Positions 62 through 25,436 of a stretch of DNA of 31,281 nucleotides are shown here, piece after piece (the stretch's first letter is position 1; each line of letters starts with the position of its first letter). The DNA is from Nitrospirota bacterium (GTDB lineage: Bacteria; Nitrospirota; JACRHJ01), in assembly GCA_963733375.1 (NCBI GenBank), contig CAVTDB010000021.1:1-31281 (forward strand), read 5' to 3'. A program made the translations under genes and the position numbers. A model generated the notes under the pieces. That model was not told the DNA's origin. It worked only from the letters and a program-made list of their open reading frames with translations, and ran no database searches.

Positions 62-3000
62 ATGACGGATAAACCAAACGAAAAAAGGGGATTGTGCGGG
101 ATATGCTCCGCCGGGTGCGGCGTAGTCGTCGAGCTACGACAGTGAAGGCCGGATGGCTTCCGTGCGGGCGGACGAGGAGTCCCCCTTCGGGATGATATGC
201 AGGGTCGGGGAGCGCTCGCCCGATATCGTCTACTCGAAGGACAGGATACCGTACCCGATGCGAAGGACGGGGAAGAAGGGGACTTTCGAATTTGAAAGGA
301 TATCCTGGGACGAGGCATATGATGAGATCGCCGGCAAACTTCTTGCCATAAAAAGAGAGTCCGGGCCGGAGGCCGCCGCGGTATATACCGGGAGCGGGAG
401 CTTCGAGCGCGCCCTGTGCGACGTCTACCAGCCCGCCGGCGTCCGCGTGTCCTCCGCCTCCAGCGTCCTGTTCCCTTACGGCTCGCCGAACACGCTGGGG
501 GTGGGCGCGCTCTGCTACGTGGCGTTCGCGATGATCGCCCCGCACGTCACGATGGGGACGTTTTACATCGACATGTTCTCGGATATCGAGAACGCGAAAC
601 TCATAGTCATATGGGGAAAGAACCCCGCCGCCCATTGCCCGCCGGACGACTTCCTGCGCATCCAGGCGGCGCATCGGCAGCGGGCGCGAAGGTCATCGTC
701 ATAGACCCCCGGAAAACGGCGCTGGCCAGGCTGCCCGGCGCCAAGTGGATACCCATCCGGCCCGGGCACGGACGGGGCCCTTGCGCTGGGGCTTTGCAAT
801 ATCCTGATAGAGGAAGAGCTCTTCGACGAGAAATTCGCGAGGGACTGGACGGCCGGCTTCGATGAGTTCAGCGCATACGTACAGCACTTCAGGCCGGACT
901 ACGTGGAGAGCGTCACGGGCGTCCCGGCTGATGTAATAACTTCGCTCGCCCGGGAGATTGCGGGTGCGGACGGCGCGGCCCCGGTAATGTACAGCGGACT
1001 CGAGTACAACGGAAACGGGGTGCAGACCGTCCGTGCGGTGCATACGCTGTGGGCGCTGGCGGGGCAGCTGGACGTGCCGGGCGGCCAGTGCTTCAAGATG
1101 AGGGAGGGCAAGTTCCCCATAAACAAGGGCGGGCTGATAGCCAACCCGGACGTGGGACGGGCGGCGGGACATAACGACTTTCCTTTATATACGAAGTACC
1201 GGGGGGAGTTCCATGCCATAGCCCTCCCGAAAGCGGTGCTGGAAGGCGACCCTTACAAAATACGCGCCCTGATAAGCCTCGGCGCGTCCATCATCACATC
1301 CTGGCCGGACTCCGGCATCTGGAGAGAGACACTGAACGCCCTGGACTTCCTCGTATGCATAGACCGGCAATGGACGGCGGACATGGCCTATGCCGACATC
1401 GTGCTCCCGGCGGCGACTTATTACGAGACCGGCTCGTACATGGTCTACGACTCGGCCTTCAAAATCCGGGAGCGTCTGATAGAACCCGTCGGCGAGGCCA
1501 GGGGCGATTTTTTCATCATGGCGGAGCTGGCAAACCGCCTGGGATACGGGCATCTCTACCCGCAGGACGAAGAAGAACTGCTGGCCTACGCACTTAAAGG
1601 CTCCGGCTTTACGCCGGAAGAGGTGCGTAAATCAGGCGGCATGGCGCGTATGCCCCAGGCCATGATGCAGTACCGGAAATGGGAAAAGGGTTCTCTCAGG
1701 GAAGACGGCAGGCCGGGTTTTGATACCCCTTCCGGCAAGTTCGAGATTGCCTCGTCCATACTGGAAGAATACGGCTACGACCCCCTGCCGCGCTACGCCG
1801 AGCCCAGGGAAAGCCCCCTCTCCACTCCGGACTATGCCAAAAATTTCCCGCTGATATTCAATTCCGGGGCGCGCCATAACCTGGACCTGCACGCCCTTCA
1901 CCAGAGCGTACCCGCACTGGCGAAAGAGTATCCGGCGCCGACGGTTTTGCTGAACAAAATCGACGCGGAGAAACGCGGGATAGCGAACGGGGACAAGGTG
2001 CGGATAAAGACGCGGCGAGCGAGTATTGAGATGTACGCCTCCGTTACCGAGGACATCGTCCCAGGAGCGGTGGAGGCAAGCGGGATGGGCGGGGGCTTCT
2101 CGGGTTCCCAGGACTGGCGGCGGGCGGGTGTGAATGAACTCACGGACTTGAATAACTTCGACCCGATCTCCGGTTTCCCCGCTTACAAGGCGCTGCTGTG
2201 CGAGGTTGAAAAAGCCGGGGCCGCGGAAAATGTTTCCGTCATGAGCGCGGGCGAGTATGCCTTAGAGGAAAAACCGGCCGATAGGCAGCCCGCCGAGCGG
2301 ATATATTTCGACCACAACGCCACCACGCCGCTCCATCCGGAAGTGCAAAAGGCGATGGATGAATGCGCGGGGTCCTTCGCCAACCCGTCCAGCATCCATT
2401 CGGCCGGCAAGGCGGCGCACGCTTTAATCGAGACGTCGCGGAAAAATCTGTCCCTTCTCCTTAACTGCACGCCGCGCCGGCTGATATTCACGAGCGGCGC
2501 CTCCGAGGGCAACAACCATGTAATAAAGTCCGTGGCGCTGGCCAGCAGAAGCTCCAGGAACCACGTCATAACCAGTTCCATCGAGCACCCGAGCGTACTC
2601 GGCGCCTGCAAATGGCTGCAGGGGCAGGGCTTCGATGTCACCTTCCTCCCAGTCGATAAGTACGGGCTCATCGACCCTGACTCCTTGAAAAAAGCCCTAA
2701 CCGGCAAGACCTGCCTGGTCAGCATAATGGCCGCCAACAACGAGACCGGCTCCATCCAGCCGGTTGCCGAGCTTGCCCGCATCGCAAGGGAGATGGGCGC
2801 GCTTTTCCATACGGACGCGGTGCAGGCGGCGGGCAAGATACCCGTGGACGTGCAGGCGTGGGGGGTGGATTTCCTGACGGTTTCCGGCCATAAATTCCAT
2901 GGGCCGAAGGGGACGGGCGCGGTCTATGTCCGCAAAGGAGTGGAACTGGAACCGCTCATCCACGGGGGGAAGCAGGAGTGGGGCCTGCGCGGCGGGACGG

Positions 3001-3455
3001 AGAATACCGCTGGAATCGTCGGGATGGGCAGGGCGGCCAGTTTAGCCGTAAACGTGCCTTCAGCACATGGAACAATGTCCGGGTCTCTGCGGGACAGACT
3101 TTTTGACGGGTATTTCGCAGAATAGTGCCCGGAGGCCCGGCTGAACGGCCATCCGGAAGCGCGGCTCCCGAACACCTTGAACGTCACCCTCCCGGGACTG
3201 CGCGGGGAGTCGATGGTCCTGGCGCTCGACTCGAAGGGGGTCTGTTTCGCGTCCGGTTCCGCCTGCAAGTCCGGCTCGCCGGAGCCCTCATACGCCCTTA
3301 CGGCCATGGGTCTGTCCGATGAAGAGGCGCACTGCTCGCTTCGGTTCTCGCTTGGGCTATCCAATACGAAGGAGCAGGTGGACAGGGTCATAGGTCTCCT
3401 GGAAGAGGTAATAAAAGGCTCCGGAAGCTCCGTGCGCTTCGTTTCCTGCCGGTAA
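62..3455 (+). CDS. Molybdopterin/tungstopterin oxidoreductase (acetylene-hydratase-like) fused to C-terminal IscS/NifS-type cysteine desulfurase; likely metallopterin-dependent ergothioneine synthase (MES); several apparent indel errors
   Basis: ATG at 62 reads MTDKPNEKRGLCGICSAGCG (CxxCxxxC 4Fe-4S motif), with a 4th Cys in GMICRVG. Bis-MGD motifs present: RISWDEA, GALCY, IDPRKT...IRPG-TDGALA, ADIVLPAATYYE, TPSGKFEI. Desulfurase motifs follow: IYFDHNATTP, FTSGASE, HTDAVQ, SGHKFHGPKG (PLP Lys) and SGSACKSG (catalytic Cys). Pieced together from ORFs 153-704, 416-865, 903-3125 and 3177-3455; egtD lies directly downstream. Confidence 0.88.
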
Positions 3456-3462
3456 TGATTGG

Positions 3463-3568
3463 GGGGAGGGAGCATTCTCGGAGAAAAATTATCGTTGAAC
3501 GTAAAATAGAAATATTGCCATGAAGCGTAATTGTGAATAATAATTTTCCGGAGAGAATGTCCCTCCCC
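3463..3568. repeat. Imperfect ~30-bp inverted repeat (long hairpin) in the MES-egtD intergenic region
   Basis: GGGGAGGGAGCATTCTCGGAGAAAAATTAT (3463-3492) versus ATAATTTTCCGGAGAGAATGTCCCTCCCC (3540-3568, reverse complement GGGGAGGGACATTCTCTCCGGAAAATTAT). Confidence 0.7.
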
Positions 3569-3588
3569 ACGCGCTGAAAGGTATAAAT

Positions 3589-4600
3589 ATGGCCTTAAAA
3601 AATAACGCCCAGTTGCGCGTCCTGAATTCAGGCCATCCCGCCTCAGCTCCCGCCCCGAACGATTTCGCGGCGGACGTGCTGGCGGGTTTATCAAGTGAGC
3701 CCAAAAGGGTCCCCTCGGTTTATTTCTACGATAAAAAAGGCAGCGAGCTCTTCCGCGGCATCACAAGTCAGAGCGAGTATTACCTGACCCGGTGCGAGAC
3801 TGAGATCCTGCGCCGGTACCGATGGGCGCTGGCGAGGTTTTTCGGAAGGAGTCAGCCGTTCAATTTGATCGAACTTGGCGCGGGCGACGGTCTCAAGACG
3901 TCGGTCCTCATCTCGCATCTGCTTAAGGAACGGCTGGAATTCAACTACGTCCCGGTGGACATCTGCGCGGAATCCGTACGGAAAGCGATCAGGAATTTTA
4001 AGGCGATGGACTGTGAGAATTTCAAAATCTGCGGGCTGGTAGACGATTATTCAAGCGCGATGCGCTGGATGGCGAGGGAGAGCCGGGGCAGGAACATCGT
4101 GCTCTTCCTGGGCTCCACGATAGGGAACTTCAAAGACGATGACGCCCGCTCTTTTCTATCCGAGTTGTCCGGCTCGCTAAGGCGCGGCGACTTTGTATTC
4201 ATCGGGTTCGATTTAAGGAAGGACCCGGCGATTTTGAATAAGGCATACAACGATAAGGCGGGGATAACCAGGGAGTTCAACCTGAACCTCCTCGACCGGA
4301 TGAACAGGGAGCTCGGCGCGGACTTCGACAGAGGTAAATTTGAACATTTCGGATACTACAACGAGCGCATATCGGCGATGGAGTCCTGGCTTATCAGCCT
4401 GGAAGACCAGGCGGTCAATATCAGGGAAATCGGGAGCGTTTTTTATTTTAAAAAAGGGGAGAGAGATCCATACCGAGTATTCGCATAAATACTCGGTGGA
4501 GGATATAAACGGGCTCATGGGCGGGGCGGGCTTTTCCATCGTGAAGACCTTCTTCGACTCGCGGAGGTTCTTCGCCGATTCGCTTTGGAAGGTCATGTAA
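3589..4600 (+). CDS. egtD: L-histidine N-alpha-trimethyltransferase (EgtD/EanA family); frameshift near 4450-4460
   Basis: Motifs GLSSEPKRVPSVYFYDKKGSELF, EYYLTRCE, LIELGAGDGLKT, FLGSTIGNF, GFDLRKD...AYND..GITREFNLNLL. The C-terminal IHTEYSHKY is in ORF 4340-4600, after an A/G homopolymer. Confidence 0.93.
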
Positions 4601-4602
4601 TT

Positions 4603-5262
4603 TTACTTGCTGTCCAGGTGCCTGATAATCCTGCCCTCCACTAAATATACGACCATCTCGGCGATGTTCGTCGCGTGGTCGGCGATCCTCTCCAGATATT
4701 TAGAGATGTAGGTTATCCTTATGGCCCTCGATATGGAGTGCGGGTCCTCTATCATGAACGTCAGGAGCTCCCTGAATATCTGCTTGTTCAGCTCGTCCAC
4801 GAAATCGTCCTCGTCCAGGACCGACCAGGCAAGCTCCGCATTCCTGTTCACGAAAGCGTCGAGGGCCTCCTTGAGCATGTTCCTTGCCGCCTTGGCCATC
4901 CTGGGGATATCGATGTAAGGCTTTAAGTTCGGCTCCTCGTTCAGCTCCAGGGCGCGCTCCGACACGTCCACCGCGAGGTCGCCTATCCTCTCGATGTCGG
5001 TGACGATCTTCATGGCCGTGGTGATAAAACGCAGGTCCCCCGCCTCCGGCTGCCTGAGAGCTAAGAGCCGTATGCATTCCTCGTCTATCTCCACTTCCAT
5101 CCGGTTTACTTCGTGGTCGGCTTCGATGACCTTCGCAGCCATCGCGTTGTCCCGGTCCACGAGAGACTTTATCGAGCGCGCGACCTGGGCCTCCACGACC
5201 GAGCCCATGGTAAGAAGCCGCTCTTTTAAGTCGATTAGCTCCTTCTCCAGTATTTTGCCCAA
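4603..5262 (-). CDS. phoU: Phosphate signalling protein PhoU
   Basis: Motifs ALRQPEAGDLRF, DIERIGD, YLERIADHATNIAE; last gene of the pst operon; TTG start with GAGGAG RBS. Confidence 0.96.
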   Translation of the reverse strand: MGKILEKELIDLKERLLTMGSVVEAQVARSIKSLVDRDNAMAAKVIEADHEVNRMEVEIDEECIRLLALRQPEAGDLRFITTAMKIVTDIERIGDLAVDVSERALELNEEPNLKPYIDIPRMAKAARNMLKEALDAFVNRNAELAWSVLDEDDFVDELNKQIFRELLTFMIEDPHSISRAIRITYISKYLERIADHATNIAEMVVYLVEGRIIRHLDSK

Positions 5263-5275
5263 GGTTATTTTCTCC

Positions 5276-6034
5276 TCATCCGAACCTGCCGGTTATGTAG
5301 TCTTCCGTCCTCTTGTCCGAGGGGTTGGTGAATATATTGTTCGTCGTCCCGTACTCTATCAGGCTCCCGGAGAGGAAAAAGACCGTCCTGTCGGATATCC
5401 TGGCCGCCTGCTGCATGTTATGCGTCACTACCACTATTGTATACCGTTCTTTCAGTTCCGTAAACAGATCTTCTATCTTCGCGGTGGAGATAGGGTCGAG
5501 CGCGGAGGCTGGCTCGTCCGCCAGCAGGACTTCCGGCTCCACAGCGAGCGCGCGGGCAATGCAGAGCCTCTGCTGCTGGCCGCCGGAGAGGCTTATGCCG
5601 GGCCTGTTCAACTGGTCCTTGACCTCTTCCCAGAGCGCCGTCCGCTTCAGGTAAATCTCCGCCTTCTCGTCAATCTCATGCCTGCTGAGCCTTTTGTTCA
5701 GTATTATGCCCGCCACCACGTTCTCTTTTATGGACATGGTGGGAAAGGGGTTCGGCTTCTGGAATACCATCCCCATGCGCCGCCTTATCAGCACCGGGTC
5801 CACGCTATTGGCGTAGATGTCTTCCCCGTCCAGGATTATCTTCCCGCTTGAATAAGCCCCCTGTATCTCCTCGTGCATACGGTTTATGCACCTGATGAAG
5901 GTGCTCTTCCCGCAGCCGGAAGGGCCGATTATCGCGGTAATGGATTTTTCCGGGATTTTTATGTCGATATCATGGAGGGCCTGGGTCTTCCCGAACCAGG
6001 CGTTTAATCCTTCTACGGCAAGCTTGTCCGCCAT
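5276..6034 (-). CDS. pstB: Phosphate ABC transporter ATP-binding protein
   Basis: Walker [33 protein letters not shown]-terminal [10 protein letters not shown]. Confidence 0.97.
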
Positions 6035-6887
6035 TAGCGTTTAAACCCCTTCCTTGCCAGATATAGCCGGGCCGAAATATTAAGCAGCAGGACCGCGCTC
6101 ACCAGCACGAATGCCGCCGCCCACGCCTTCTGATGCCACTCCTCGTAAGGCGAGATGGCGTAGGTAAAGAGCTGCACCGGGAGGGTGCCCATCGGCTGGG
6201 TGGGCTTAAGGCTCCAGAATACAGTTCGATGCCGACGTGAAGAGGAGCGGCGCGGCCTCCCCGCCCACCCTCGCGACGGCAAGCAGGACCCCCGTGACCA
6301 GGCCGCCGCTCGCTGTCTTTACCACTATCTTAAGGATCGTCACCCACCTCGGCACGCCGAGCGCCAGGGATGCCTCCCGAAGCGAATCCGGCACCGTCTT
6401 GAATATCTCTTCGGAGGACCGGATTATTATGGGGAGCATCAGAAGCGCCAGGGCGACCGAGCCGGAATAGGCTGAAAAACTGTGCATCGGCATCACTATG
6501 AGCGCGTAGGCCACTATCCCGGCCACGATCGCCGGAACCCCCGCAAGGACGTCCGAGACGAACCTCACCGCGCTGGCGAACATCCCTCTCCCGTACTCGG
6601 AGAGATATATGGCCGTGGCGATCCCGACAGGCACGGAAATGACCGACGCCATGCCGACTACTATCAGGCTCCCGACGAAGGCGTTGGCCATCCCTCCGCC
6701 CGGTACGCCCACCGGGGTCGGTAGCTGCGTAAAGAAATCAAAGTTTATCGCATGTATCCCTTTGGAGAGGACGTAGCCCAGAATCCAGAACAGAAAGGCA
6801 ATGGCGGTCAGGGACGAAAGATACCGAGAACGCAAGCCAGAAATGCCCCACTGGCCTTCTTTTCAAATATCTTAAGTCGCGGCCCAT
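6034..6887 (-). CDS. pstA: Phosphate ABC transporter permease PstA (frameshifted)
   Basis: [43 protein letters not shown]; C-terminal AWAAAFVL in ORF 6034-6282. Start ATG overlaps the pstC stop. Confidence 0.92.
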
Positions 6888-7836
6888 CAGATCCCCGCCC
6901 CCCTCATCGCCGCGCTGGCGCCCATCTTCCACATGAGGTACTTGGCGGCGGCGTTGACGATGATGCTTATCACGAAAAGGACCAGCCCAAGCCCTACCAG
7001 CGACGATATATGGAGCTTCTGGACAGCCTCGGCGAACTCGTTCGCTATCGCCGACGCGATGGTGTAGCCGGGTTGAAAAAGCGACAGGCTTATCTTGGGC
7101 GTATTGCCGATTACCATCGTAACCGCCATCGTCTCGCCCAATGCGCGGCCCAGGCCCAGGATTACCGCGCCCAGGATGCCGGAACGGCTGTACGGGATTA
7201 CCACCTTGGACACGACCTCCCACCTTGTCATGCCGAGCGCCAGGCCGCCCTCACGCTGGGCCTGGGGCACCGTAAACATCACGTCGCGCGATATCGCGGA
7301 TATGGTGGGGATTATCATGACGGCCAGTATTATGCCGGCGGCCATCACGCCAAGCCCCAGGGGATAGCCCGTGAAGAACGGAAGGTAAGAAAACTTGGAA
7401 AGAGGCGGCTCTATGTAATGCTGAAGCGCCGGGGCCAGGACGAAGAGACCCCACATCCCGTAAATGAGGCTCGGTATCGCGGCCAGAAGCTCGATTAAAA
7501 AACCCACCGGCGTCCTTAGCCACGGCGGCGCAAGCTCGCTTAAGAAGACGGCTATGCCAAGGCTTACGGGAAGGGCGAGGATAAGCGCGATGAGCGAGGT
7601 GTAAAAGGTGCCCCATATGAAAGGGAGCGCCCCGAACAGCCCCTGCACGGGGTCCCAGTCGCTGGATGCCAGGAATTTAAGCCCGAAGCTCTTGAAGGCG
7701 GGGAGCGAGTAGATAATCAGCTCCACGACCACCACGCCCGCAATGAAGCAGGATAAAAGCGGCGAAAGAGGCGGTTATCCCCCTGAAGACAGCTCTCAGG
7801 GTTAAACCGCCTCTTCCTGTTCAGATCTTGAGGCAT
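6887..7836 (-). CDS. pstC: Phosphate ABC transporter permease PstC (N-terminal frameshift)
   Basis: WDPVQGLFGALPFIWGT, ELLAAIPS, GRALGETMAVTMVIGN, TIASAIANEFAEA. Probable start ATG at 7836 (MPQDLNRK). Confidence 0.92.
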
Positions 7837-7925
7837 CAAGCCTTTTATCTCACCTTTGGATGCGCCCGTTAAACCCGGGCAGCCACAATAGTATCTGAAC
7901 TCTTCGGGCATCAGGCCCCGGTAAA

Positions 7926-8925
7926 CTACTTTACCTCTTTGTTCAGGTCCGCCAGTATCTGTTTTTTCAGTTTGTTCGGGCAGGGAGACGTAGGTCAAGT
8001 CTGCCGCGTCCTTGTCGCCTTTCGCGTAGGCCCACTTCACATAGCTCTTAACCGCTCTGGCCTTGGCGGCGGGCAGGTTCTTCGGGATGAGCATGAAGGT
8101 GAACCCGGCTATCGGATACGAGTTCTTCCCAGGCGAATAGGTGAACTTTATGTGGTAATCGGCCGGGATCTCGGCATGCGTGGCCGCCTCCTTGGCGTTC
8201 TCCAGGCTCGGATACACGTAGTTGCCGTCCCTGTTTTTTACCATCGCATAGGTCATCTTGTTCTGAAGCACATAGGCAAGCTCGACGTAGCCAATCGCGC
8301 CGCTGGTCTGCTTGACCGTGCCCGCGACCCCTTCGTTGCCCTTGCCGCCGATGCCGGCGGGCCAGCTGACCGCCGTGCCGGAGCCGACCTTGGTTTTCCA
8401 CTCGGGGCTCACGTCGCTCAAGAACCAGGTGAAGATATTCGTGGTGCCGGAGCCGTCGGAACGGTGGGCAACGATTATCGGCAGTCGGGGAGTTTGACGC
8501 CGGGGTTCTCCTTCGTTATTGCCGGGTCGTTCCAGTGGGTTATTTTGCCGAGGTAAATATCCGCTATGGTCTGTCGGGTTGAGCTTCAGGCCCGTCTTAA
8601 CACCGGGGACGTTATAGGCCATCGCCACGGCGCCGCCGACCGTCGGGAACATGAAGAGGTTCGCTGCTTTCTGCTGCTCGCCCGTAAGAGGGGCGTCGCT
8701 GCAGCCGAAGTCGACCGTGCCGGCCTTAACCTGGGCGATGCCGCCGCCGCTGCCGATGGAGGCGTAGTTTATCTTCGTCCCGGTCTGCTGGTTGTACGAG
8801 TAGAACCACTTCGAGTAAAGAGGGTACGGGAATGTAGCCCCCGCCGCGTTCAGCGTCTCGGCCGCGTACGCCGCGCCGCTCGCAAGTATCAATGCCGCGA
8901 CGGCAATTATCAAAAGCTTTTTCAT
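7926..8925 (-). CDS. pstS: Phosphate ABC transporter substrate-binding protein PstS (indels near 8490-8570 and 7985)
   Basis: Signal peptide, [48 protein letters not shown]. The true C-terminus [17 protein letters not shown] is in a shifted frame, with stop at 7926-7928. Confidence 0.93.
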
Positions 8926-8966
8926 TTTAAGTCCCCTTATTGCTTTATTTTTGTAAAGTTTTCTTT

Positions 8967-9003
8967 GTCCCCGCCTTCTCTTTTATAAACTGAAGGCGGG
9001 GAC
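8967..9003. terminator. GC-rich stem-loop between the porin gene and pstS (terminator-like or mRNA-stabilising)
   Basis: GTCCCCGCCTTC (8967-8978) / GAAGGCGGGGAC (8992-9003): perfect 12-bp stem with no clear U-tract on the minus strand. Confidence 0.5.
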
Positions 9004-9036
9004 TGTCATATTATATCACTCAAAACAAAACATCAA

Positions 9037-10359
9037 CTAAAACGTCCACTGCACGTCAGCCTTCAGGAGGTTCTCGTTTCCCGCCTTGGTCGAAGCTATG
9101 TTCGGTCGGCTATGGTCCTCTCGTCGTCCAGGACGAACATCACGTTCTTGCTTACGTCGTAGCTGACGCCGTAATACCAGCGGTGGATAGTGGAGTAGGC
9201 TACATCGTCGTCGTGGTCGAACCTGTCGTAGCGGCCGAGTATCCTGAGCGGCTTCAGGAAGGGCATCCTGGCCCACGCTAGAGGACGAGTAGCCATGGCC
9301 TTCGACGTTTTGTGATGCCTGCCGGGACATTTGGCGCTAAGAGTCGGTGCCCCTGGTTATGTCGTATTCGCCGGAAACAAAGAAGTCGTCTTTGTACTTA
9401 TATCCTACGAACCCGATTTCCCTGTCTCTCCTGTGCAAGAAGTCAGCTTTGCCGGTGGAGTAGAACGCGCTAACCTGTAAACCCTTCGTCATATCCCACT
9501 GCGGGAGCGGGCAAACAGTCAGCCTGCCCTGAACGGTCTTGTACTTGTTGGTCTCGTCGGCGTGGTACCCTTCGCCGTTTATCACGTCCACCTGATAATC
9601 GCCGTAACCCGCCGGGATCTTGCCCTTAAGGCCCACGCCCAGGTCGGCGGAGTTGAAAAAGCCTTCCTTCTCGATGATCATGGGGTCGATTACGCGGTAC
9701 TCCCAGAGGCCTTCCTCGTAATCAAGCCACGCAGTCTGGTACTGGCCCATCTTGACTTCGAAGGACGGGTAGAAATTCAGGAAGTCGTGGAAGTCCAAAT
9801 AGGCGTACTTGACTCTCAACTCCCAGTCACCTTTGTTGTTATCCGTTACGCCCGAAGGCAGGGCCGACCCGGCCGCGCCCGAGAAACGGGTTATATCTGA
9901 CGTGAAGCGGGCGCTTATCTCCGGGCTCATATCCGCGAAGACATTTATATATCCGCGGTTGAGGGTGAACTTGTTCCTGGGGTCCTTGTGGCCATTGTCA
10001 GCGGTCGTCTGGCGGTGGTCGAAGTCGTAAGAGTACTCGCCGTAGAAGAGGCCGCCGATTTTTACCTTCGGGAAGGTATTGGCCGCCTTCTCGCCGACGG
10101 CGTTCGTAACGGCGTCCTTGAAGGCCTGGCTGCTGTAATCGCCGGCCGGAGCGGCTGCCGCTTCGGGGGCGGGGGCGGCCTGCGCCGCCGGAGCCTGCGT
10201 CAGGGTGGACATGTCAACAGGGACCCTGCCCTCCGCCGGCTTGGTGAAGACCTGGCCGGTTTCGGGGTCCTGGTAGAGGACCGGGGAATCGCACCATGCC
10301 GATGCTGATATGGATAAGAGAATTGCCGCGAATATCGTCGCGCTCAGATACTTCTTCAA
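9037..10359 (-). CDS. Putative outer-membrane beta-barrel porin, probably for phosphate uptake (frameshifted)
   Basis: Signal peptide, Ala/Pro linker, amphipathic beta-strands (FTLNRGYINV, LRVKYAYLDF, DLGVGLKG, YQVDVINGEGY) and C-terminal ...KADVQWTF (Bam signal). Lies upstream of pstS, behind Pho boxes. Confidence 0.7.
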
Positions 10360-10400
10360 CTTTAGTCCTCCTTTGGAACGGGAAGGTTATCATCCCCCCT

Positions 10401-10439
10401 GTTACAGAATTATTACAGTTATGTTACAAGTCCGTTAAA
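10401..10439 (-). promoter_or_regulatory. Pho box array (4 half-sites, 11-bp period) upstream of the porin-pst operon
   Basis: Plus-strand GTTACA 10401, ATTACA 10412, GTTACA 10423, GTTAAA 10434. The minus strand reads TTGTAAC-ATAA-CTGTAAT-AATT-CTGTAAC, matching the PhoB consensus CTGT(C/A)A(T/C)-N4. Confidence 0.8.
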
Positions 10440-10503
10440 TCCGCTTTGCTGCCCCTTTTCACCCCCTTTCCAAAGATTGCGGGCAGAAGGGTAACAGTAA
10501 TTT

Positions 10504-10542
10504 GTTACAGCGTTATTACAGGAAGTTTATTTTTGGGTTACA
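10504..10542 (-). promoter_or_regulatory. Second Pho box array
   Basis: GTTACA 10504, ATTACA 10515 and GTTACA 10537 (11- and 22-bp spacing); overlaps the phoR stop. Confidence 0.6.
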
Positions 10543-11990
10543 GTGAGGAATTAGAGGATTTAAAGGTGAGCGTGACTTTCGTCCCTCTGCGGACGAGGCT
10601 TTCGATATTGAAGCTGCCGCCGTGGATCCTTACAAGGTGCTTGACGATCGCCAGGCCAAGGCCCGTCCCGCCAAGCTCGCGCGAGCGCGCCGGGTCCACC
10701 CGGAAAAATCGTTCCCCCATCCTGGGCAGCATCTCGGGAGGGATTCCGGGGCCCGTGTCGGTTATGGATATCTCCACCGTATCACCCGCCTCTCCCGCTT
10801 TTCCGGCTGATGGTGACGCTCTCGCCCCTCGGGGTATATTTGACCGCGTTGTCCAGGACGTTCAGCATTATCTGGTAGGCCTTATCTTTATCGGCAAGGG
10901 CCAGCGGCATCTCGCCGGGGAAATCCACGACCAGTTTTATGTTTCGTTCCTTTATTTTCGGTTCGAGAAGGGCCGCGGCCTCCAACGCCACTTCCTTAAC
11001 CGACACCGGTCTCATGTGAAGCTTAATCTCGCCCAGCTCGATTCTCGACAGAGTCATCAGGTCCTCGACGAGTCTGGCCAGTCTTTGCGAGTTCGACTCT
11101 ATTATCCCCAAAAATTTGTATCGCCTTCTCTTTATCGTCAAGCGCGCCGTCCATCAAAGTCTCGGCAAAGCCCTGTATGGCGGCGATGGGGGTTTTGAGC
11201 TCGTGCGTCACGTTCGCCACGAAATCACGGCGCACCCTCTCCAGGGCCTGCATCCTCGTCATGTCGTGCAGCACTATCACTATCCCGGAGAAACCGTCCT
11301 CTATGATAAGAGGCACGCACCCGGCGATGAAATACATCGGCTCCGGGAATCCCGTCTCTACCTCGCCGGAGACGTAATCGCGGCGCTCGTGCGCACTCTT
11401 GTACAGGTTCAGTATCCCTTCGTTCCTTATCACTTCCACAAGCGGCCTGCCGACGGCGTATTCTTCCTTGATGCCGAATGTCTTCAGGAACGCCGGGTTC
11501 ACGATCATCACCCTGCCCTGGGCGTCTGTCACCATGACCCCGTCCGCCATGCCCTTCAGCACCGCCGTCAAAATGACTTTCTCCTTGGAGAGCGCCTCCA
11601 CGTTTTTCTTGAGCTGCTCCGCCATGAGGTTTAGGTTATCCGCCAGGACCCCAAGCTCGTCTTTTCCATCGGAGGCAATCCGGCTGGAGAAATCTCCCGA
11701 CGCGATCTTCCCGGTGAACGCGGCCATCCTGTCCGCCCTCCGGGTAAGCCGCCGGGACAGGAATATCCCCAGGATAATCGAGGCGATAAATATTATAAGG
11801 CGCCCGCCGCAGCCTGCTCTTTTATGTGCGACATCGCCTCTTCCACTTGCTGGGATGTCATGTGGGAGCGTACCAGATAGTTCTTGACGCTTCGGGAGAT
11901 ATTAAGCCAGAGGATAGGGGCGGCGACGGCGCCCAGGAGGATATACGCGAGGATTACCTTGCTTAAAAGCCTGCTTCCGAACTTCATCAT
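10538..11990 (-). CDS. phoR: Phosphate regulon sensor histidine kinase PhoR (TM-HAMP-PAS-HisKA-HATPase; frameshifted)
   Basis: HAMP ([15 protein letters not shown]), [60 protein letters not shown], spread over ORFs 11793-11990, 11023-11727, 10782-11141 and 10538-10777. Confidence 0.92.
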
Positions 11991-12679
11991 TCAGCCATTT
12001 CGTACCCGATGCCGCGCGCGGTCTTTATGACTTTCGGGTTCTCCGGGTCTTCCTCTATCTTCGCCCGGAGCCGCCTTATATGGACGTCCACCGTCCGGGG
12101 CTCCACGAACTGGTCGTCCTTCCATACGTTGTCCAGGAGTTTTTCACTGGGGATGGCCCGGCCCCTGTTCTGGGCGAAATATTTAAGGAGCTTGAACTCC
12201 GTGGGCGAGAGCACCAGCGGCTTCTCGTTCAGATAGACCTTGTTCTTGTCGAGGTCGATTTTAAGGACGCCGACACTTATGACCGGCTGCGTCGCCTGGC
12301 CCTTCACGGACAGCCGCCTCAGCACCGCCTTCACCCTCGCCACCAGCTCGCGCGGCGAGAACGGCTTCGTGACGTAGTCGTCCGCTCCCAGCTCAAGCCC
12401 AAGGACTTTGTCAAGCTCTTCGCCCTTCGCCGTGAGCAGGATTACCGGGATATTCTGGCTCTCCGGCCTTTTTTTGAGCTCCCGCAGGACCTCCAGGCCC
12501 TGCATGCCCGGAAGCATTATGTCGAGCACAATGAGGGAGGGTATCTCTTTTTTTGCCGCCTTGAGGGCGTCGATACCGTTCTCCGCGGTGAGTACCTTGT
12601 ACCCTTCTTTCCCAAGGTTATACTCGACCAGCTCCAGCAGGTCTTTCTCGTCGTCCACCACGAGGATTTTCTCGGGCAT
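11987..12679 (-). CDS. phoB: OmpR-family response regulator PhoB/PhoP
   Basis: Receiver domain (VVDDE, LDIMLPG, LTAK, GADDYVTKPFSPREL) plus winged helix (RTVDVHIRRLRAKIE, TARGIGY); coupled to phoR and the pst operon. Confidence 0.92.
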   Translation of the reverse strand: MPEKILVVDDEKDLLELVEYNLGKEGYKVLTAENGIDALKAAKKEIPSLIVLDIMLPGMQGLEVLRELKKRPESQNIPVILLTAKGEELDKVLGLELGADDYVTKPFSPRELVARVKAVLRRLSVKGQATQPVISVGVLKIDLDKNKVYLNEKPLVLSPTEFKLLKYFAQNRGRAIPSEKLLDNVWKDDQFVEPRTVDVHIRRLRAKIEEDPENPKVIKTARGIGYEMAE

Positions 12680-13132: not shown

Positions 13133-13306
13133 ATGCATTGCCCGTATTTTAAAAAATTTGAGACTGATATGTGCGTATCCTCGGAAATATCGATCATCCC
13201 GAGCGGCAGGCATACCGAACAGTTCTGCAAAACAAATCACTACTGGGCCTGTCCCATAAAGGGGAACCTGGCGAAGATGGTAGAAGCCTTCTCCTACAGC
13301 GCATAA
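13133..13306 (+). CDS. Small Cys-rich protein 2 (57 aa, not in ORF track)
   Basis: AAGGAG RBS, then MHCPYFKKFETDMCVSSEISIIPSGRHTEQFCKTNHYWACPIKGNLAKMVEAFSYSA*; its stop overlaps the PHP start (TAATG). Confidence 0.75.
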   Translation: MHCPYFKKFETDMCVSSEISIIPSGRHTEQFCKTNHYWACPIKGNLAKMVEAFSYSA

Positions 13307-14013
13307 TGCTTCTATGTGACTTCCATATCCATACCGATTACTCGGACGGCTCCGTGGGCTTGAGAAGGGTAGTTGACCTCTACGGCCAGGCCGGCTTCGA
13401 TGTGATAGCCATTACCGACCACGTCGTAAACGGCGACACCCTCATGGGCAAGCTTGCCCACCGCCTCAAGTTCAGCGTCACCCAGAATAATTTCGAAAAA
13501 TATTTCTGCCACGTCAAGGAAGAGGCGGCGAGGGCCTGGGAGAGATACCGGATGCTCGTGATACCCGGTATAGAGATAACCAAGAATTCCTTCTCCTCGA
13601 ACAAGGCGGCGCACCTGCTCGTACTCGACATAAAGGAGTTTATAAAGGCCTGCTGGGATTTTGAGAAGATATTCCTGGAAGCAAAGCGCCAGGACGCCCT
13701 CACCATCGCCTGCCACCCCCACCATACGTCGGAAGCCGGCTTCTTAGACACCTTGTTCCTATGGAACAACAGAGAGAAATACGCCAAGTACATAGACGCA
13801 TGGGAGATAGCCAACAGAGACGACGTATTCAACGTGATAAGCCTGAAGAAATACCCGTACATCGCCAACAGCGACTTCCACAAGCCCCGCCACATATATT
13901 CATGGAAGACCCTCCTTAACTGCGAAAAAAACCTCGATTGCATAAAGAAGTGCATAAAGCTGAACGACGGAGTATCGATCACGCTATTTCGGAGGTGCAA
14001 AAAAGAATGGTAG
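13306..14013 (+). CDS. PHP-family metal-dependent phosphoesterase
   Basis: MLLCDFHIHTDYSDG, IAITDH, PGIEIT, AHL, CHPH, ANSDFH motifs. Real start is 13306, not 13171. Confidence 0.88.
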   Translation: MLLCDFHIHTDYSDGSVGLRRVVDLYGQAGFDVIAITDHVVNGDTLMGKLAHRLKFSVTQNNFEKYFCHVKEEAARAWERYRMLVIPGIEITKNSFSSNKAAHLLVLDIKEFIKACWDFEKIFLEAKRQDALTIACHPHHTSEAGFLDTLFLWNNREKYAKYIDAWEIANRDDVFNVISLKKYPYIANSDFHKPRHIYSWKTLLNCEKNLDCIKKCIKLNDGVSITLFRRCKKEW

Positions 14014-15137
14014 CCGTATTTTATTTTCTGACCGGCCTTGGGTTCCTCATCTATCTGGCTCAAATCCTGGCGGTACGGTCAGTCATCAAGACGCCAAGGA
14101 AGAAAAGCGAGTACCTCCCGCCGATAAGCGTCCTTAAGCCCTTGAAGGGCCTGGACGACAACCTGTTCGAGAACCTTGAGAGCTTCTGCAACCAGGACTA
14201 TCCAACCTACGAAATTATTTTCGCCCTGAGGGAAATCAGCGATCCCGCTTATAAGGTGGCCGTTAAAATAAAAGAGAAATGTAAAGACCGGGACATAACG
14301 ATAATCGCCCAGTGGTGCGAAGAAGGGCTGAACCCGAAGGTCAACAACCTGGTCCCGGCATACAGGGCGTCCAAATATGACTTCTTCCTCATAAGCGACA
14401 GCAACGTGCTGGCGGATAAAGACTATTTAAGAGATACCGTGCAGCACATGGAAGACGGCGAAGTGGGTCTCGTGAGCAACCTCATCAGGGGGGTCGGCGG
14501 GCGCACCATCGGCTCCGTATTTGAAAACCTGCACCTGAACACCTTCATCCTGGGCGGCGTATGCTTCCTGGAAAAAATCGTGAAGATGCCTTGCGTGGTC
14601 GGGAAATCGATGCTCATCCGTAAAAGTCATTTCGAGGAGATCGGCGGCTTCGGAGCGGTAAAGGACCACTTCGCGGAAGACTATATAATCGGCAGAAAGA
14701 TGAAGGAGGCCGGATTTAAAGTGGCCCTTTCAAACCATGTCATAAATACCGTCAACTTATATTGGCAGACCGGCCAGTTCATGTCCCGGCATGCGAGGTG
14801 GGGGAAGCTGAGGTACAGGATCGGAGGGGTTTCTTATCTTACGGAGCTTCTTGGGAATTTCGTTTTTCTTTCCTTTGTCCCGCTTCTTTTTCGCGGCCCG
14901 TCGAGGTTTACCTTGCTCCTGCCGCTTGTCGCATGGCTTTTAAAATCCTGCGGCGATTATCTCACGGGCAGGACATTGAAATCGGAGATGCACCCGCTCC
15001 TTTATCTCCTGTCTCCTTTGAAAGACATAATTATCGGGATCGTCTGGTTCGTGCCGATATTCTCGAACTCCATAGAATGGAGAGGGGACAGATATACGAT
15101 AACAAAGGATTCCCTGCTCCACCCCTGCAAGCTCTAA
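14007..15137 (+). CDS. GT21 / ceramide-glucosyltransferase-like (HpnI/Pgt-like) membrane glycosyltransferase
   Basis: N-terminal TM, ISVLKPLKGLD, QDYP, GLNPKVNNL, ISDSNV, GKSMLIRK, FAEDY, RHARW, C-terminal TMs and IEWRG. Confidence 0.88.
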   Translation: MVAVFYFLTGLGFLIYLAQILAVRSVIKTPRKKSEYLPPISVLKPLKGLDDNLFENLESFCNQDYPTYEIIFALREISDPAYKVAVKIKEKCKDRDITIIAQWCEEGLNPKVNNLVPAYRASKYDFFLISDSNVLADKDYLRDTVQHMEDGEVGLVSNLIRGVGGRTIGSVFENLHLNTFILGGVCFLEKIVKMPCVVGKSMLIRKSHFEEIGGFGAVKDHFAEDYIIGRKMKEAGFKVALSNHVINTVNLYWQTGQFMSRHARWGKLRYRIGGVSYLTELLGNFVFLSFVPLLFRGPSRFTLLLPLVAWLLKSCGDYLTGRTLKSEMHPLLYLLSPLKDIIIGIVWFVPIFSNSIEWRGDRYTITKDSLLHPCKL

Positions 15138-15143
15138 GGCGAC

Positions 15144-16930
15144 TTACTTTACCTCTTTCCAGGCGATACCGTCCGGCAGTTTGAATTTTACCGTATCGCG
15201 CGTAGATTCGAGCGCCCCGGAAAACCAGCCGTCTTCATCCCAGAATACGCCGTCCGGCAAAAGGATGCGGACAAGCTTATCAGCCGCCGCGCCGCCGCGC
15301 CAGCCCGATCATCGCCCACTTGCGCACTCTTTTCTTATCCGGGGTCCCTTGGGAAAAGGCATACTCGCACCTCCGCCCGTTCCTGGCTGGAGGACGCATT
15401 CTCAATGCCGATGATATAAATGCCCCGCGCCCCGCGGGCGACTGTCAGGACCTTCTGATTATCGCCGCCGGACATCTTAAACTCATTGTCCCGCTCTTTT
15501 CCCCCCTTGCCTTTCAAGGGGTACGGCCGCCAGGCGTATTTCAGCTTTAATTTAGCGCCGTTCCCGCAATTCAAGTAAACCACCATGTCCACGGCATTTA
15601 AGTTTTCATCATGCAGGTCACGTGTTCGCTCACCGAGCGGTCCCCGTAAACGTCATATCCTTCCGCATATATGAAATTTTTTTCCGCCTGGGCTGGGATT
15701 TTAATTTTAAAAGAACCGTTTGCCGCCCTGGCCTCGTAGGAGACTCCGTTGACATATACTGTTACCTTGTCCACATTCCCTTTGACCTCCCCGGCTACCG
15801 TGATGTCCGCCGATTCAATGCAGTCTATTACGGTGCCGTCCGAGGGGCTTTTTATCTCTATGCCGGTCTCCGGGACAGCGTTAAGCGCCGCATGTCCGAA
15901 CCCGGCCGCCTGAGAAGTCCCCGTTTTTATCGCGTCCACGCCGGCGGCCTTTTTCTCGCCTGCGCCCGAAGCCCCCCCCGGGACCCCGTGCAACGGAAGC
16001 GTATAAAGTACCGGCGGAGGCCATTTTTTTGCCGCCCGTTTCAATATTATCTCCGCCTGCGGCATTTCCAGGACTTCCGGCGGCGGAGGCCGCTTCGCCC
16101 TGCCCGTCCCATCCGGCCCTGTCCGGCCCCGGCCGCTTTCTCTAATTTCGCCGTGGGGGTTCCGCCCGCCCCTTCGCTTCTTCCCACGCCTACTCCGGAA
16201 GTCCCGGCCCCTTCAGCGGTCTTGATCCCGGCTGGAGAAAATGCAGGCCCCATGCCGGTGACGGATGAAAATCCCGCGGCGGATTTGAAGCCCGCTCCCT
16301 CCCCGGAGGACGTAATGAGAGGGTCGCCGCCGGCATATGATTTTATATCGCCCACCCCGACGATGTCCTCTGACCCCCTCTGCCGCCCCCGCCTCTTCCG
16401 CCTCCCCTGCCCCTTTTTCTCCGGCAGGGCGGCAGCCCCTCCGCCGGGCGAACCAGGCCCGGGAAGGGCAGTCCCGTCAGGGACGCCGGGAGCGGAATTG
16501 TTTTTTTCAACCGAGGCTACCAGGGTCTCGTCGCCTGAGGATTTTAAAGGGCCTCCCACGGGCGCTCCGGCGGAGGAAATATCGGAGTCGGGCGCATTCT
16601 CCGGCGCGGGTTTCTCCGCGGGCGCGGATATCTCCTTGGACGATGCCGTGGATGCGGGTATCTCTTTACGGGCTTGGGCTAGATACCGCTTTGGCGAGGA
16701 TATCGCCCTGGCGCGCGGCCGCCTTTTCGGCGGCGGGCGCGTGAGGGAGCCCTTCGGACGACGTCCACGTAAGCCAGGTTCTGGATGCTCGCGGGTTTAT
16801 CGGCGTAGTAGTCAATAATCGCGGGCGCCGCCACGGCGGCTATGGAGTGAAAAACAAAGGAGACCGCCAGGAAGAAAGGCAGTCTTTTCCCTTGTTTTTC
16901 TTTTATTACCCTTTTTGAGTTTTTGACCAT
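15144..16930 (-). CDS. Hypothetical membrane-anchored protein (TonB-like N-terminal TM, Ala/Gly/Pro-rich linker, Ig-like domain); frameshifted; last gene of the tad operon
   Basis: FFLAVSFVFHSIAAVA anchor (SxxxH), low-complexity linker, IKSPSDGTV...ITVAGEV...VYVNG...NGSF (Ig-like). Fragments 16679-16930, 16047-16559, 15598-16065 and 15335-15592; C-terminus ...DGIAWKEVK* with stop at 15144-15146. Confidence 0.55.
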
Positions 16931-17280
16931 GGGGGCAGTTCCGCGAATACAAGCTCATCCCCCGGCTCCACGTCCAGTTCCGAAAGGGTCCCGCCCGCGA
17001 TTTCTATGACCCCTTTAGCCTTTGGGAATATCCTGGACAGCTTGCCGGGTCTTATACCTCTGATAACGCCGACGGCCCTTTTGCCGTTGTCAAAAAAAAC
17101 CGCGTCTATCGGGAATTTCATTCCGATGGTATGTATGGAGATGCAGGGAGATATTACCAGGGCGTGCCCGCCGTCGAGTCTATTCTTCCCCAGAAGGCCC
17201 CTCAGCCGGGCCAGGAAACTGTCGGCAAAGGAGACCTGGCTGGCTATGCAGGATTTTTTCGTCCCGTTGAAGATCTTCAT
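16906..17280 (-). CDS. DUF192-family protein
   Basis: MKIFNGTK...ADSFLARLRGLLG...PCISIHTIGMKFPIDAVFFD...VIEIAGG; start overlaps the tadC stop. Confidence 0.85.
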   Translation of the reverse strand: MKIFNGTKKSCIASQVSFADSFLARLRGLLGKNRLDGGHALVISPCISIHTIGMKFPIDAVFFDNGKRAVGVIRGIRPGKLSRIFPKAKGVIEIAGGTLSELDVEPGDELVFAELPPWSKTQKG

Positions 17281-18199
17281 TTTTTTACAACCTTGAACAG
17301 CGTGTCGTAGATCTGTATCATGGCCGGACCCAAAATTACCACCATGAGCGCCGGGAATATGCAGAACGCGAGCGGGAAGACCATTTTTATCGTCGTCTTC
17401 GCCGCCGCCTCTTCGGCGATCTGACGGCGCTTGGTCCTTAAAGAGTCGGAATGTACCCTGAGGGAGCGCGCAAGGCTTGCGCCAAGTTTCTCGGCCTGCA
17501 CCAAAAGGGCGACCAGCGCCTTGATATCGTCTACCCCGGTGCGCTCTCCCATGTCCCGGAGGGCGTCCATCCTGGGCTTTCCGGCCCGTGCCTCCGCGCT
17601 TGCCGTCCTGAATTCCTGCGCCAGCACGTTCCCCTGAAACTCCTCGGTTATCCGGACTATCGCGGCGTCCAGGCCAAGACCCGCCTCCACGCATACCGTG
17701 AGGAGGTCCAGCACATCCGGCAGGGCGTGGAATATCTCCGTCTGCCTGCGCTTTATCTTTTCGTTAAGCCAGACGTTCGGAGCGATGTACACTAAGAGGC
17801 CGCAAGCAACGCCAGGACGACCGCGGCAAAAAATTTGTGGAGGTGCGCCTGCGCATAGGGATAAACGAGCAAAAAGGCGGCGGCTCCGGCAAACACCTTT
17901 ATGCCGGCGAATACCAGAAGCGACGAACTTTTTCTGTATCCCGCCTTGATCAGCATAATCCTTAATTTGCCGCGTTCCTTATCCGACATGGGGACTTTAG
18001 TGCCGGCCATTATCGCGGCCTTCTCGAAGGCCCTCTCCGTCCCGGCGGCATTCTGCCCGTCCGCCGTCTTTTCCTTCTTCATCTCGCGCAGCCTTATCTC
18101 CACCGCGGCCGGCCTTGAGAATACCAGGAAGGGCAATATGAGCGCGAGGACGCCCACGATTATGAATACTGCTGCGGTCATCACTGCGATAGTTATCAT
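17277..18199 (-). CDS. tadC: Tad pilus platform protein TadC (frameshift near 17795-17820)
   Basis: LPDVLDLLTVCVEAGLGLDAA, QAEKLGASLARSLRV, AEEAAAKTTIKMVFPL...IFPA. Confidence 0.92.
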
Positions 18200-18208
18200 T
18201 TTGGGGAC

Positions 18209-19181
18209 CTATATTTTTATTTTTATGATTTTTCTTATCACGAAGAACCCGATCACCTGCAGCGTGAAGGCCGCTGCCACCATCATAATCCCGGCCTTCG
18301 TAGTAAACAGCACCTTGATATATTTCGGGTTTAAAACGCATCAGCACCATCAGCAAGGCCAGGGGAAGGGCGGCAAGTATATATCCCGAAAGCCTCCCCT
18401 GCGCGGTATACACCCTGAGCTGCCTGAGCACCTTGAACCTCTCCCGGATAGTCATCCCAAGCTTTTCAAGTATCTCCGCAAGGTTTCCGCCGGTCTCCCG
18501 CTGCACGTTGACAGCGGTGATAAAAAACCGGAGGTCTATGGAGTCGACGCTCCTCGTCATGTGGTTCAACGCCTCGGGGATAGGGATGCCGTATCCCTGC
18601 TCCTCGTAAGCCAGCCGGAACACCTTCGCTATCGGCTCCGCCATCTCCTGGGACACCACCTGAAGGGCGCTGGTGAAGGAATGTCCGGCCCGGAGCGACC
18701 TCGCGGCCATATCCAGCGCGTCCGGGAGCTGTTCCATGAACTTCTTAAACCGCGCCTGCCGCCGGTTTAAGAGATACATGTACGGCAGCGAGGCCAATGC
18801 GGGCGCAAGCAACAGGCATGGCAGGAGGCTCTTCCCCATCCGGGCGCCGATAAGGAATCCCACTGCCCCAAGGGCAAGGGTAAGGAGCGCCAGCGGCCCG
18901 ACCTTTATCTTCACGTCCGCCTGCTCTATCAAAAGCTCCATCCTCTGCGCGAGGGGCAGGCTGTACAGGAACTTGTGCAACGCCGGTATGGCGCTCATCA
19001 TCTCGTCCTTCAAAATAGTAGGCATGGCCTCTTCCGGAGGCTTGCGGAGCGCTATCGTCTGCAGGCGTTGTTTTATTTCCGACCTTTCGGCGGCCTGCGG
19101 TCCGGCGGCGAATAAATAGATTACCGCGCCAGTCGAAAGAAAGGCCGCGAAAGCGATTAACGCTATGAGTGCAGGTCCCAT
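18209..19181 (-). CDS. tadB: Tad pilus platform protein TadB (frameshift near 18340)
   Basis: FMEQLPDALDMAARSLRAGHSF, QRETGGNLAEIL, TAQGRLSGYILAALP; GGAGG RBS before ATG 19181. Confidence 0.92.
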
Positions 19182-19192
19182 GTGGCCCTCCA

Positions 19193-20518
<1,326 letters not shown>

Positions 20519-20536
20519 AGATACACCTCCGTACTT

Positions 20537-21684: not shown

Positions 21685-21701
21685 GGAAATTTCTCCTTCT
21701 C

Positions 21702-22254
21702 TCAGTTATGCGTAGTGCCATGCCGTAATGCATGTCGGCCTCGCATTGCATCCACCAGCTTCGCCGCAGGGAACTTTTGCTGGAGTTCCGCCAGCACTTG
21801 CATAAGGTCACTACAGCTGAATGTTTTGCTTGCTGAGCTCGGCTGTATGATATAAATGTCATCCTGGCCAGCGATTCCGTGCGGAATCGCATGCCCGGTC
21901 CAGGCGCCGCCGACTGAGTCAACCTGGATTACCCCGTAACCCACCACGGTAACTTCCTGCAGACCGTTTCCCTGGTCGGTCCCGTCATACATCGGCCGAA
22001 TTCTGCAACGCAACGTTTTTCGCCTCAGTGGTCGCATTGGTTTTCTTTACGGTATCCGACGAGCCTTCCAGGGCGTTCGCCCCTGCAAGCGCCGCGGCGT
22101 CCGCGGCAACCTGGAGCTGGCTCTTGACGCCGTAGAGGTGCGCAACGTCCAGAGCCAGCGCCGCCATTGCAATAAGCGCTACAAGCGAGAGGGCGAAGAT
22201 TACCAGTACCCCGCCCTTTTTCCCCGCAACCGGCTTTATCAGTGCAGTTTTCAT
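21702..22254 (-). CDS. TadG-like (Tad N-terminal) minor pilin/adhesin; short and frameshifted near 21990, possibly internally deleted
   Basis: KKGGVLVIFALSLVALIAMAALALDVAHLY...QLQVAADAAALAGA; continuation in ORF 21702-22037. Confidence 0.65.
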
Positions 22255-23911: not shown

Positions 23912-23941
23912 GTAAGATTCCTCCTTTTGTTTTACTGCTCA

Positions 23942-24831: not shown

Positions 24832-24847
24832 TTCTGTTTCTCCTTTG

Positions 24848-25215: not shown

Positions 25216-25219
25216 ATCT

Positions 25220-25381: not shown

Positions 25382-25408
25382 AATATCCCCTTTGCGCGGG
25401 CAATCTTC

Positions 25409-25436
25409 CCGCCGGGGCCCCGAAGGGCCCCGGCGG
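25409..25436 (-). terminator. 12-bp GC stem with cUUCGg tetraloop after the major flp gene
   Basis: Minus strand CCGCCGGGGCCC-TTCG-GGGCCCCGGCGG. Confidence 0.7.

What the first reader, a model, noticed from the sequence alone, without database searches (positions are those of the whole stretch)
62..4600. Molybdopterin enzyme-cysteine desulfurase fusion next to egtD: O2-independent ergothioneine synthesis (MES type)
Seen: one ~1130-codon gene joins a 4Fe-4S/bis-MGD oxidoreductase to a complete IscS/NifS desulfurase, followed by egtD. No egtB/egtC/egtE or rhodanese-type eanB is in the window. Established: EgtD makes hercynine, and a bifunctional enzyme with this architecture (MES, Caldithrix abyssi, Seebeck lab) sulfurates hercynine without O2. 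Inference: this organism makes ergothioneine anaerobically. The system is rare and automated annotation would split and mislabel it, but it is not undescribed; a new host lineage would be the novelty.
Basis: partly seen in the sequence, partly recalled or inferred. Interest (0 to 1): 0.7.

Follow-up and report, generated by a model that had tools for sequence, protein, structure and literature searches.

The report
Anaerobic ergothioneine genes, error-laden assembly
Two neighbouring genes in an uncultured Nitrospirota bacterium match the oxygen-independent route to the antioxidant ergothioneine described in 2022 and likely make that compound; the breaks in both genes are likely assembly errors, so this is an ordinary new copy of a known pathway, from a branch of the enzyme family that includes none of the four tested enzymes.

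Summary
Confirmed, but known. As assembled, 62-3455 is in pieces: ten extra bases break it and one breaks egtD (3589-4600). Two same-genus relatives have intact frames and lack these bases, as do contigs from public runs, and this genome's rpoB has 16 such insertions, so they are most likely assembly errors. Read through, the gene encodes 1127 aa, 62.6% identical to Caldithrix abyssi MES. It keeps all nine mapped key residues and groups with MES in trees. In the host family, egtD occurs in the same 5 of 12 genomes as MES. egtB and a multi-domain rhodanese were not found (genome 81% complete). The 'new host lineage' claim is weak: the 2022 paper already lists two Nitrospirae MES, and I found 13 among 401 genomes of the phylum. 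This scan reported MES on other DNA at least 8 times. One twist: the enzyme lies in a subclade with 18 distinctive Mo-module positions, and none of the four tested MES carries its hallmark residues. Activity was not tested.

The parts
62..3455 (+). MES gene (metallopterin-dependent ergothioneine synthase), 1127 aa once 10 extra bases are left out
   Evidence: one intact frame in L001 (1125 aa) and L002 (1127 aa)
62..2213 (+). N-terminal Mo/W-bis-MGD module (residues 1-716). Fe4S4 cysteines C12/C15/C19/C46 at nt 95/104/116/198; predicted metal ligand C151 at nt 513 (CaMES C153)
   Evidence: Pfam; residue mapping; best PDB sequence match acetylene hydratase, E 8.6e-71; model of the L002 orthologue, pLDDT 90.2, aligns to 2E7Z at Z 37.8, rmsd 2.8 over 678 residues, tied with ArrA and Nap
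2298..3455 (+). C-terminal NifS/IscS-type PLP cysteine desulfurase. K943 (CaMES K952) at about nt 2892; C1065, C1088 and C1126 (CaMES C1074, C1097, C1135) at nt 3264, 3333 and 3447
   Evidence: Aminotran_5; 58.8% identity to the CaMES C-module; residue mapping
3461..3571 (.). About 110-nt hairpin-forming dispersed repeat between the two genes; not specific to this locus
   Evidence: 12 copies in G000; 7 of 41 relatives; 17 of 28 consensus pairs show compensatory changes; no Rfam hit at gathering score
3589..4600 (+). egtD, histidine N-alpha-trimethyltransferase, 336 aa once the extra base at 4465 is left out
   Evidence: Methyltransf_33 in two frames; the intact L002 orthologue (325 of 336 identical) passes TIGR03438 at 315.9 bits against a cut-off of 290.9; F47, I50, Y56, N166, Y206, T213, F216 and E282 kept, M252 replaced by S

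Best explanation
The locus is a two-gene MES-egtD pathway that likely makes ergothioneine without oxygen, and its frameshifts are likely assembly errors. By analogy with C. abyssi MES (steps inferred, not tested here): EgtD methylates histidine three times with SAM to give hercynine (trimethylhistidine). The C-terminal PLP domain (K943) strips sulfur from cysteine onto C1065 as a persulfide. The terminal C1126 relays it within the same chain to the Mo/W-bis-MGD centre bound by C151. The sulfido-metal then transfers sulfur to C2 of the imidazole ring. Shown here: architecture, residues, family placement, gene linkage, and intact frames in relatives.
For: Identity to CaMES is 704 of 1125. All 9 mapped residues are kept: four Fe-S cysteines, C153, K952, C1074, C1097, C1135. 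The window protein matches 309 of 312 columns that are at least 97% conserved across 273 fused homologues. It nests in the MES clade. egtD lies beside MES in 60 of 68 loci, and in 19 of 21 from this subclade; the 2 subclade misses are contigs of 2.4 and 3.4 kb. In the host family egtD is in the same 5 of 12 genomes as MES. Not found: egtB (TIGR03440 in G000; FGE-sulfatase 0 of 5 genomes) and egtC above cut-off (0 of 3); rhodaneses are single-domain frames of 108-171 aa. moaA and modA are present, with mobA-like hits below cut-off. dsrA and acsB point to anaerobic metabolism. For artefact: inside rpoB, G000 has 14 single and 2 double insertions and no deletions against G002, while G001 against G002 has none. 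Contigs from 4 public runs leave out bases at the MES sites. Chemistry is from PMC9516567.
Against: No activity was measured. The subclade differs from the other 144 homologues at 18 Mo-module columns, 4 of them invariant in all 144, and all four tested enzymes carry the other residues at those four (read by eye). EgtD has S at M252, one of the substrate contacts marked in the paper's Figure S1. No run held half or more of the stretch's words (best share 0.15), so the breaks could not be checked against this strain's own reads. G000 is 81% complete, so the absences are provisional. The host also encodes heme-copper oxidases, so it may not be a strict anaerobe.
Confidence: 0.86

Rival explanations
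1. The subclade uses the same sulfur relay, but its altered cofactor pocket gives a different metal or pterin preference, or a related product (for example selenoneine or another sulfurated betaine).
For: 18 diagnostic columns, all in the Mo module. Several (S111, K186, A190, H191, L608, L611, E670, S672) lie in or beside stretches numbered as cofactor contacts in Figure S2 (colours lost in the text, so the assignment is inferred). EgtD has M252S.
Against: Acetylene hydratase has the same K and H at positions 186 and 191. 228 of 229 family-wide conserved Mo-module columns are kept. egtD linkage is as tight as elsewhere (19 of 21 against 41 of 47). S at M252 occurs in 19 of 57 MES-linked EgtDs and in 2 of 2 egtB-linked EgtDs examined. 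selD was not over cut-off in 0 of 3 genomes.
Confidence: 0.08
2. The operon is a real pseudogene in this strain.
For: 11 frame-breaking insertions in 4.5 kb; the source reads were not available.
Against: All 11 are insertions. The same pattern breaks the essential rpoB, and moaA is split across two frames. No premature stop remains after read-through, and the protein is 95.8% identical to the intact orthologue.
Confidence: 0.04
3. The fusion is a self-sulfurating or Fe-S-supplying redox enzyme unrelated to ergothioneine, and egtD is a chance neighbour.
For: Databases name these proteins 'cysteine desulfurase NifS'. The fold is shared with nitrate, formate and arsenate reductases.
Against: egtD co-occurs in 60 of 68 loci across many phyla and in either gene order. 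Identity to the assayed CaMES is 62.6%. A separate NifS-type desulfurase exists on contig C13.
Confidence: 0.02

Closest known systems
CaMES, metallopterin-dependent ergothioneine synthase of Caldithrix abyssi (UniProt A0A7V4WV16; Beliaeva and Seebeck 2022, PMC9516567)
   Same: Domain order, length (1127 against 1136 aa), 62.6% identity, Fe4S4 cysteines, metal-ligand Cys, PLP Lys, relay cysteines, linked egtD.
   Different: Lies in a separate, well-supported subclade with 18 diagnostic positions, including T192 to A, D193 to H, F610 to L and Q613 to L (CaMES numbering); not assayed; host from another phylum than CaMES.
EgtD of Mycolicibacterium smegmatis (PDB 4PIM/4PIO, 4UY5)
   Same: TIGR03438 over cut-off for the intact orthologue; F47, I50, Y56, T163, N166, Y206, T213, F216, E282 and S284 kept.
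   Different: M252 is S; the partner is MES, not EgtB/C/E.
Acetylene hydratase (PDB 2E7Z), DMSO reductase family
   Same: Best sequence and Foldseek match in the PDB; Fe4S4 site plus Cys-ligated bis-MGD fold.
   Different: 25-27% identity; its catalytic Asp13 (residue role recalled) aligns with S16; no desulfurase domain.
EanA/EanB (Chlorobium limicola) and EgtB pathways
   Same: Same first step and same product (PMC9516567).
   Different: Unrelated sulfur-transfer enzymes; neither was found in G000.

Membership tests
MES | N-terminal bis-MGD module fused to a C-terminal PLP cysteine desulfurase in one chain | tested here: met
   The junction lies inside the unbroken ORF 903-3125; single frames in L001 and L002
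MES | C153, K952, C1074, C1097 and C1135 conserved (the Table S1 criterion) | tested here: met
   C151, K943, C1065, C1088, C1126 (mapped on P0230, which is 99.4% identical to P0243)
MES | Four N-terminal Fe4S4 cysteines | tested here: met
   C12, C15, C19, C46
MES | Mo module groups with CaMES, apart from stand-alone DMSO-reductase-family homologues | tested here: met
   53-row quick tree, 100% SH-aLRT against 3 stand-alone homologues; acetylene hydratase itself was not a row
MES | Co-encoded histidine methyltransferase, no EgtB or EanB | tested here: met
   egtD adjacent; egtB and a multi-domain rhodanese not found in an 81% complete genome; FGE-sulfatase 0 of 5 genomes
MES | Host is an anaerobe | tested here: inconclusive
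   dsrA and acsB present, but also heme-copper oxidases; the organism is uncultured
MES | Converts hercynine and cysteine to ergothioneine | not testable with these tools
   Needs expression and LC-MS
EgtD (IPR035094 / TIGR03438) | Equivalog HMM score over cut-off | tested here: met
   315.9 against 290.9 for the intact L002 orthologue; the window's own truncated frame scores 271.4
EgtD (IPR035094 / TIGR03438) | Substrate-contact residues F47, I50, Y56, Y206, T213, F216, M252, E282 (Figure S1) | tested here: inconclusive
   7 of 8 kept; M252 is S, as in 19 of 57 MES-linked and 2 of 2 egtB-linked EgtDs examined

The most novel reading that the evidence does not exclude
The window's enzyme represents a second, untested MES subfamily, found in Syntrophales-like, Desulfobacterales, Chloroflexota and Nitrospirota genomes. 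Its Mo/W-pterin pocket has been remodelled in concert (S111, K186, A190, H191, F382, L608, L611, E670, S672), giving a different metal or cofactor preference, or a different thio- or seleno-histidine product. This Nitrospirota family took it up by lateral transfer, apart from the MES of other Nitrospirota.
Probability: 0.1. Interest if true: 0.6.

Novelty: new member of a known kind. Interest (0 to 1): 0.22.

Why it matters
It adds one more likely anaerobic ergothioneine producer, in a small uncultured class of sulfite/sulfate-reducing Nitrospirota. It also shows how databases hide this pathway under the name 'cysteine desulfurase'. The practical value is a candidate list: full-length CaMES could not be purified (PMC9516567) and no MES structure was found in the PDB copy searched. 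The intact same-genus orthologue belongs to a subclade that none of the four tested enzymes represents, so it is a reasonable next enzyme to assay. It does not change what is known about the pathway.

Tried and rejected
Source reads: no run held half of the stretch's words, and no RNA holder was listed, so direct polishing was impossible and expression is open. A pattern scan for the CaMES locus in metagenome contigs found 0 matches; CaMES was obtained through. Ten named subclade proteins had no UniRef accession, so whether Table S1 entries fall in this subclade is not settled. Riboswitch reading of the MES-egtD spacer: rejected, because there was no Rfam hit and the 12 copies sit beside unrelated genes, including before oppositely oriented ones; the promoter-like match at 3515-3544 lies inside this repeat and is not treated as evidence. 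Selenoneine reading: selD not over cut-off in 0 of 3 genomes. Literature: 0 papers hold ergothioneine + Nitrospirota + egtD; 0 hold three of EgtD, Met252, Glu282, tryptophan; searches listed no second primary study of MES, but subscription journals are mostly not searched. egtE was not searched separately in the genome. The host class name was not determined. The careful tree did not finish; quick trees are cited.

Full report
Observation. The window is contig C21 of genome G000 (2.39 Mb, 81% complete). Translation shows the gene in pieces across three frames. Pfam finds Molybdopterin at 153-701; Molybdopterin, Molydop_binding and Aminotran_5 in the unbroken 740-aa ORF 903-3125; the rest of Aminotran_5 at 3126-3452; and Methyltransf_33 in two frames at 3589-4600 (32 of 107 ORFs scanned). 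The fusion point is therefore real without any correction. A phoU/pst operon converges from 4603.

The breaks. The closest named loci, L001 and L002 (titles: Nitrospirota bacterium), match about 9 kb of the window at 91-94% nucleotide identity. Against both, the window has 10 extra single bases in the large gene and one in egtD, and no missing base in either coding region. Leaving them out gives 1127 aa (1080 of 1127 identical to the L002 protein P0001) and 336 aa (325 of 336 identical to P0003). Contigs of four public runs, from relatives only, leave out bases at about 130, 677-680, 759-761 and six sites in 3053-3128; one piece covering 4412-4700 has one gap. The control is rpoB. In G000 it is scattered over several frames, with 14 single and 2 double insertions and no deletions against G002, whereas G001 against G002 shows none inside the gene. 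moaA is also split. An insertion-prone assembly is the simplest reading. It is not proven, because this strain's own reads were not found.

Identity. I read parts 1-3 of 6 of the main text of PMC9516567 and parts 1-3 of 4 of its supplement. It defines MES, reports ergothioneine in E. coli for four homologues, and shows C153, K952, C1074 and C1135 to be essential, with sulfur transfer inside one chain. CaMES was retrieved as P0243 (UniRef100_A0A7V4WV16). The window protein is 62.6% identical overall, 65.8% in the Mo module and 58.8% in the desulfurase. All nine mapped residues are kept. It matches 309 of 312 columns conserved in at least 97% of 273 fused homologues (this set was gathered by similarity to two queries and contains near-duplicates). 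In a 53-row quick tree it nests with CaMES at 100% SH-aLRT against three stand-alone homologues. The best PDB sequence match is acetylene hydratase. A model of the orthologue's Mo module (pLDDT 90.2) aligns to it at Z 37.8, rmsd 2.8 over 678 residues, tied with ArrA and Nap.

EgtD. The intact orthologue passes TIGR03438. Seven of the eight substrate contacts of Figure S1 are kept; M252 is S. Among 57 MES-linked EgtDs this position is M in 24, S in 19, I in 13 and L in 1. Both egtB-linked EgtDs examined have S. The change is therefore common, but its effect is untested.

Context. egtD lies beside MES in 60 of 68 loci (L069 was dropped as a plain desulfurase hit). In the host family, MES and egtD occur in the same 5 of 12 genomes; these are kin and not independent. 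egtB, egtC over cut-off and a multi-domain rhodanese were not found. moaA and modA are present; mobA-like hits fall below cut-off. dsrA and acsB indicate anaerobic metabolism, but heme-copper oxidases are present too.

Host novelty. G002, labelled same genus, holds P0001 at 100%, which places the host in Nitrospirota. Its class has 12 genomes, all in one family. Table S1 already lists two Nitrospirae MES. Of 401 genomes of the phylum, 16 matched at E 1e-120 or better: 13 are MES at 60% identity or more, and 3 are stand-alone homologues at 39-42% (two candidates scored per genome). The window's enzyme groups with Syntrophales-like sequences, not with other Nitrospirota MES. Holding 8 Nitrospirota rows together is rejected (p-AU 9e-74, 20 rows), but that group was named after I had seen a tree, and the direction of transfer was not tested.

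The one twist. The tree puts the window in a 129-row clade (100% SH-aLRT). Eighteen columns, all in the Mo module, separate it from 144 other MES; at four of them (CaMES T192, D193, F610, Q613) the others are invariant (the tree used the same columns). By eye, all four tested enzymes carry the other residues at these four. Several changes lie near positions numbered as cofactor contacts in Figure S2, an inference because the colours were lost in the text. Against a change of function: acetylene hydratase shares K186 and H191, the relay residues are intact, and egtD linkage is undiminished (19 of 21 against 41 of 47). Whether Table S1 includes members of this clade was not settled.

Literature and earlier notes. 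Searches listed no second primary MES study and no paper joining ergothioneine, egtD and Nitrospirota; subscription journals are largely outside the library. PMC13547098 was read as passages only and cites MES in its reference list. This scan had reported MES loci in other genomes at least 8 times.

Verdict. It is a new member of a known family, in an error-laden assembly, from an untested subclade. Interest 0.22.

Noticed in passing
window 3461-3571: About 110-nt hairpin repeat between MES and egtD: 12 copies in G000, 2-18 matches in each of 6 other genomes of the family, 0 of 29 outside it; 17 of 28 consensus pairs show compensatory changes; no Rfam hit; sits between unrelated genes.
   Followed up: partly
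proteins P0248, P0247, P0232, P0242: ANME-1 archaea have MES Mo modules about 72% identical to CaMES with no desulfurase attached. P0232 and P0242 (724-731 aa) end right after the module, and P0248 (ANME-1 ERB7, 1064 aa) fuses the module to EgtD. Since CaMES needs sulfur transfer within one chain, their sulfur donor is an open question, arguably more interesting than this window.
   Followed up: partly
L001:3796-4845, L002:3058-4080, L007, L009, L017, L059: A DUF5996 gene lies near MES in 6 of 21 loci of this subclade and in none of the 47 others; the upstream region is missing from G000.
   Followed up: partly
L017, L021, L025, L042, L060, L065: A family of ORFs whose representative (L060:5997-7766) is an OpuAC-type betaine ABC transporter occurs in 6 of 68 MES loci, possibly for ergothioneine or hercynine transport. 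Not present in the window.
   Followed up: no
L001, L002 versus L003-L010: In this genus egtD follows MES and has S252. In the sister Syntrophales-like loci egtD precedes MES, has M252 and is only 37-41% identical, which suggests egtD was replaced independently.
   Followed up: no
G000 genome-wide (C26 rpoB, C3 moaA; window 6200-9000): The assembly is rich in spurious indels, so other 'split' or 'broken' genes in this genome should be treated with caution.
   Followed up: partly
window 4603-12679 (minus strand): phoU, pstB, two permeases and pstS, then a 340-aa ORF without Pfam hit (9337-10359) and a PhoR/PhoB-like pair.
   Followed up: no
window 13171-15137 and 15598-31281: A PHP-domain protein, an HpnI-like glycosyltransferase below cut-off, and a Tad/Flp pilus cluster with secretin, RcpC, TadE/G and Ig-domain ORFs; ORFs at 28035-28799 and 28939-30342 have no Pfam hit.
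   Followed up: no
L005:813-2632 and L006: One genome holds a further MES copy in pieces near an intact one, and another copy on a second contig; possibly duplication or mis-binning.
   Followed up: no
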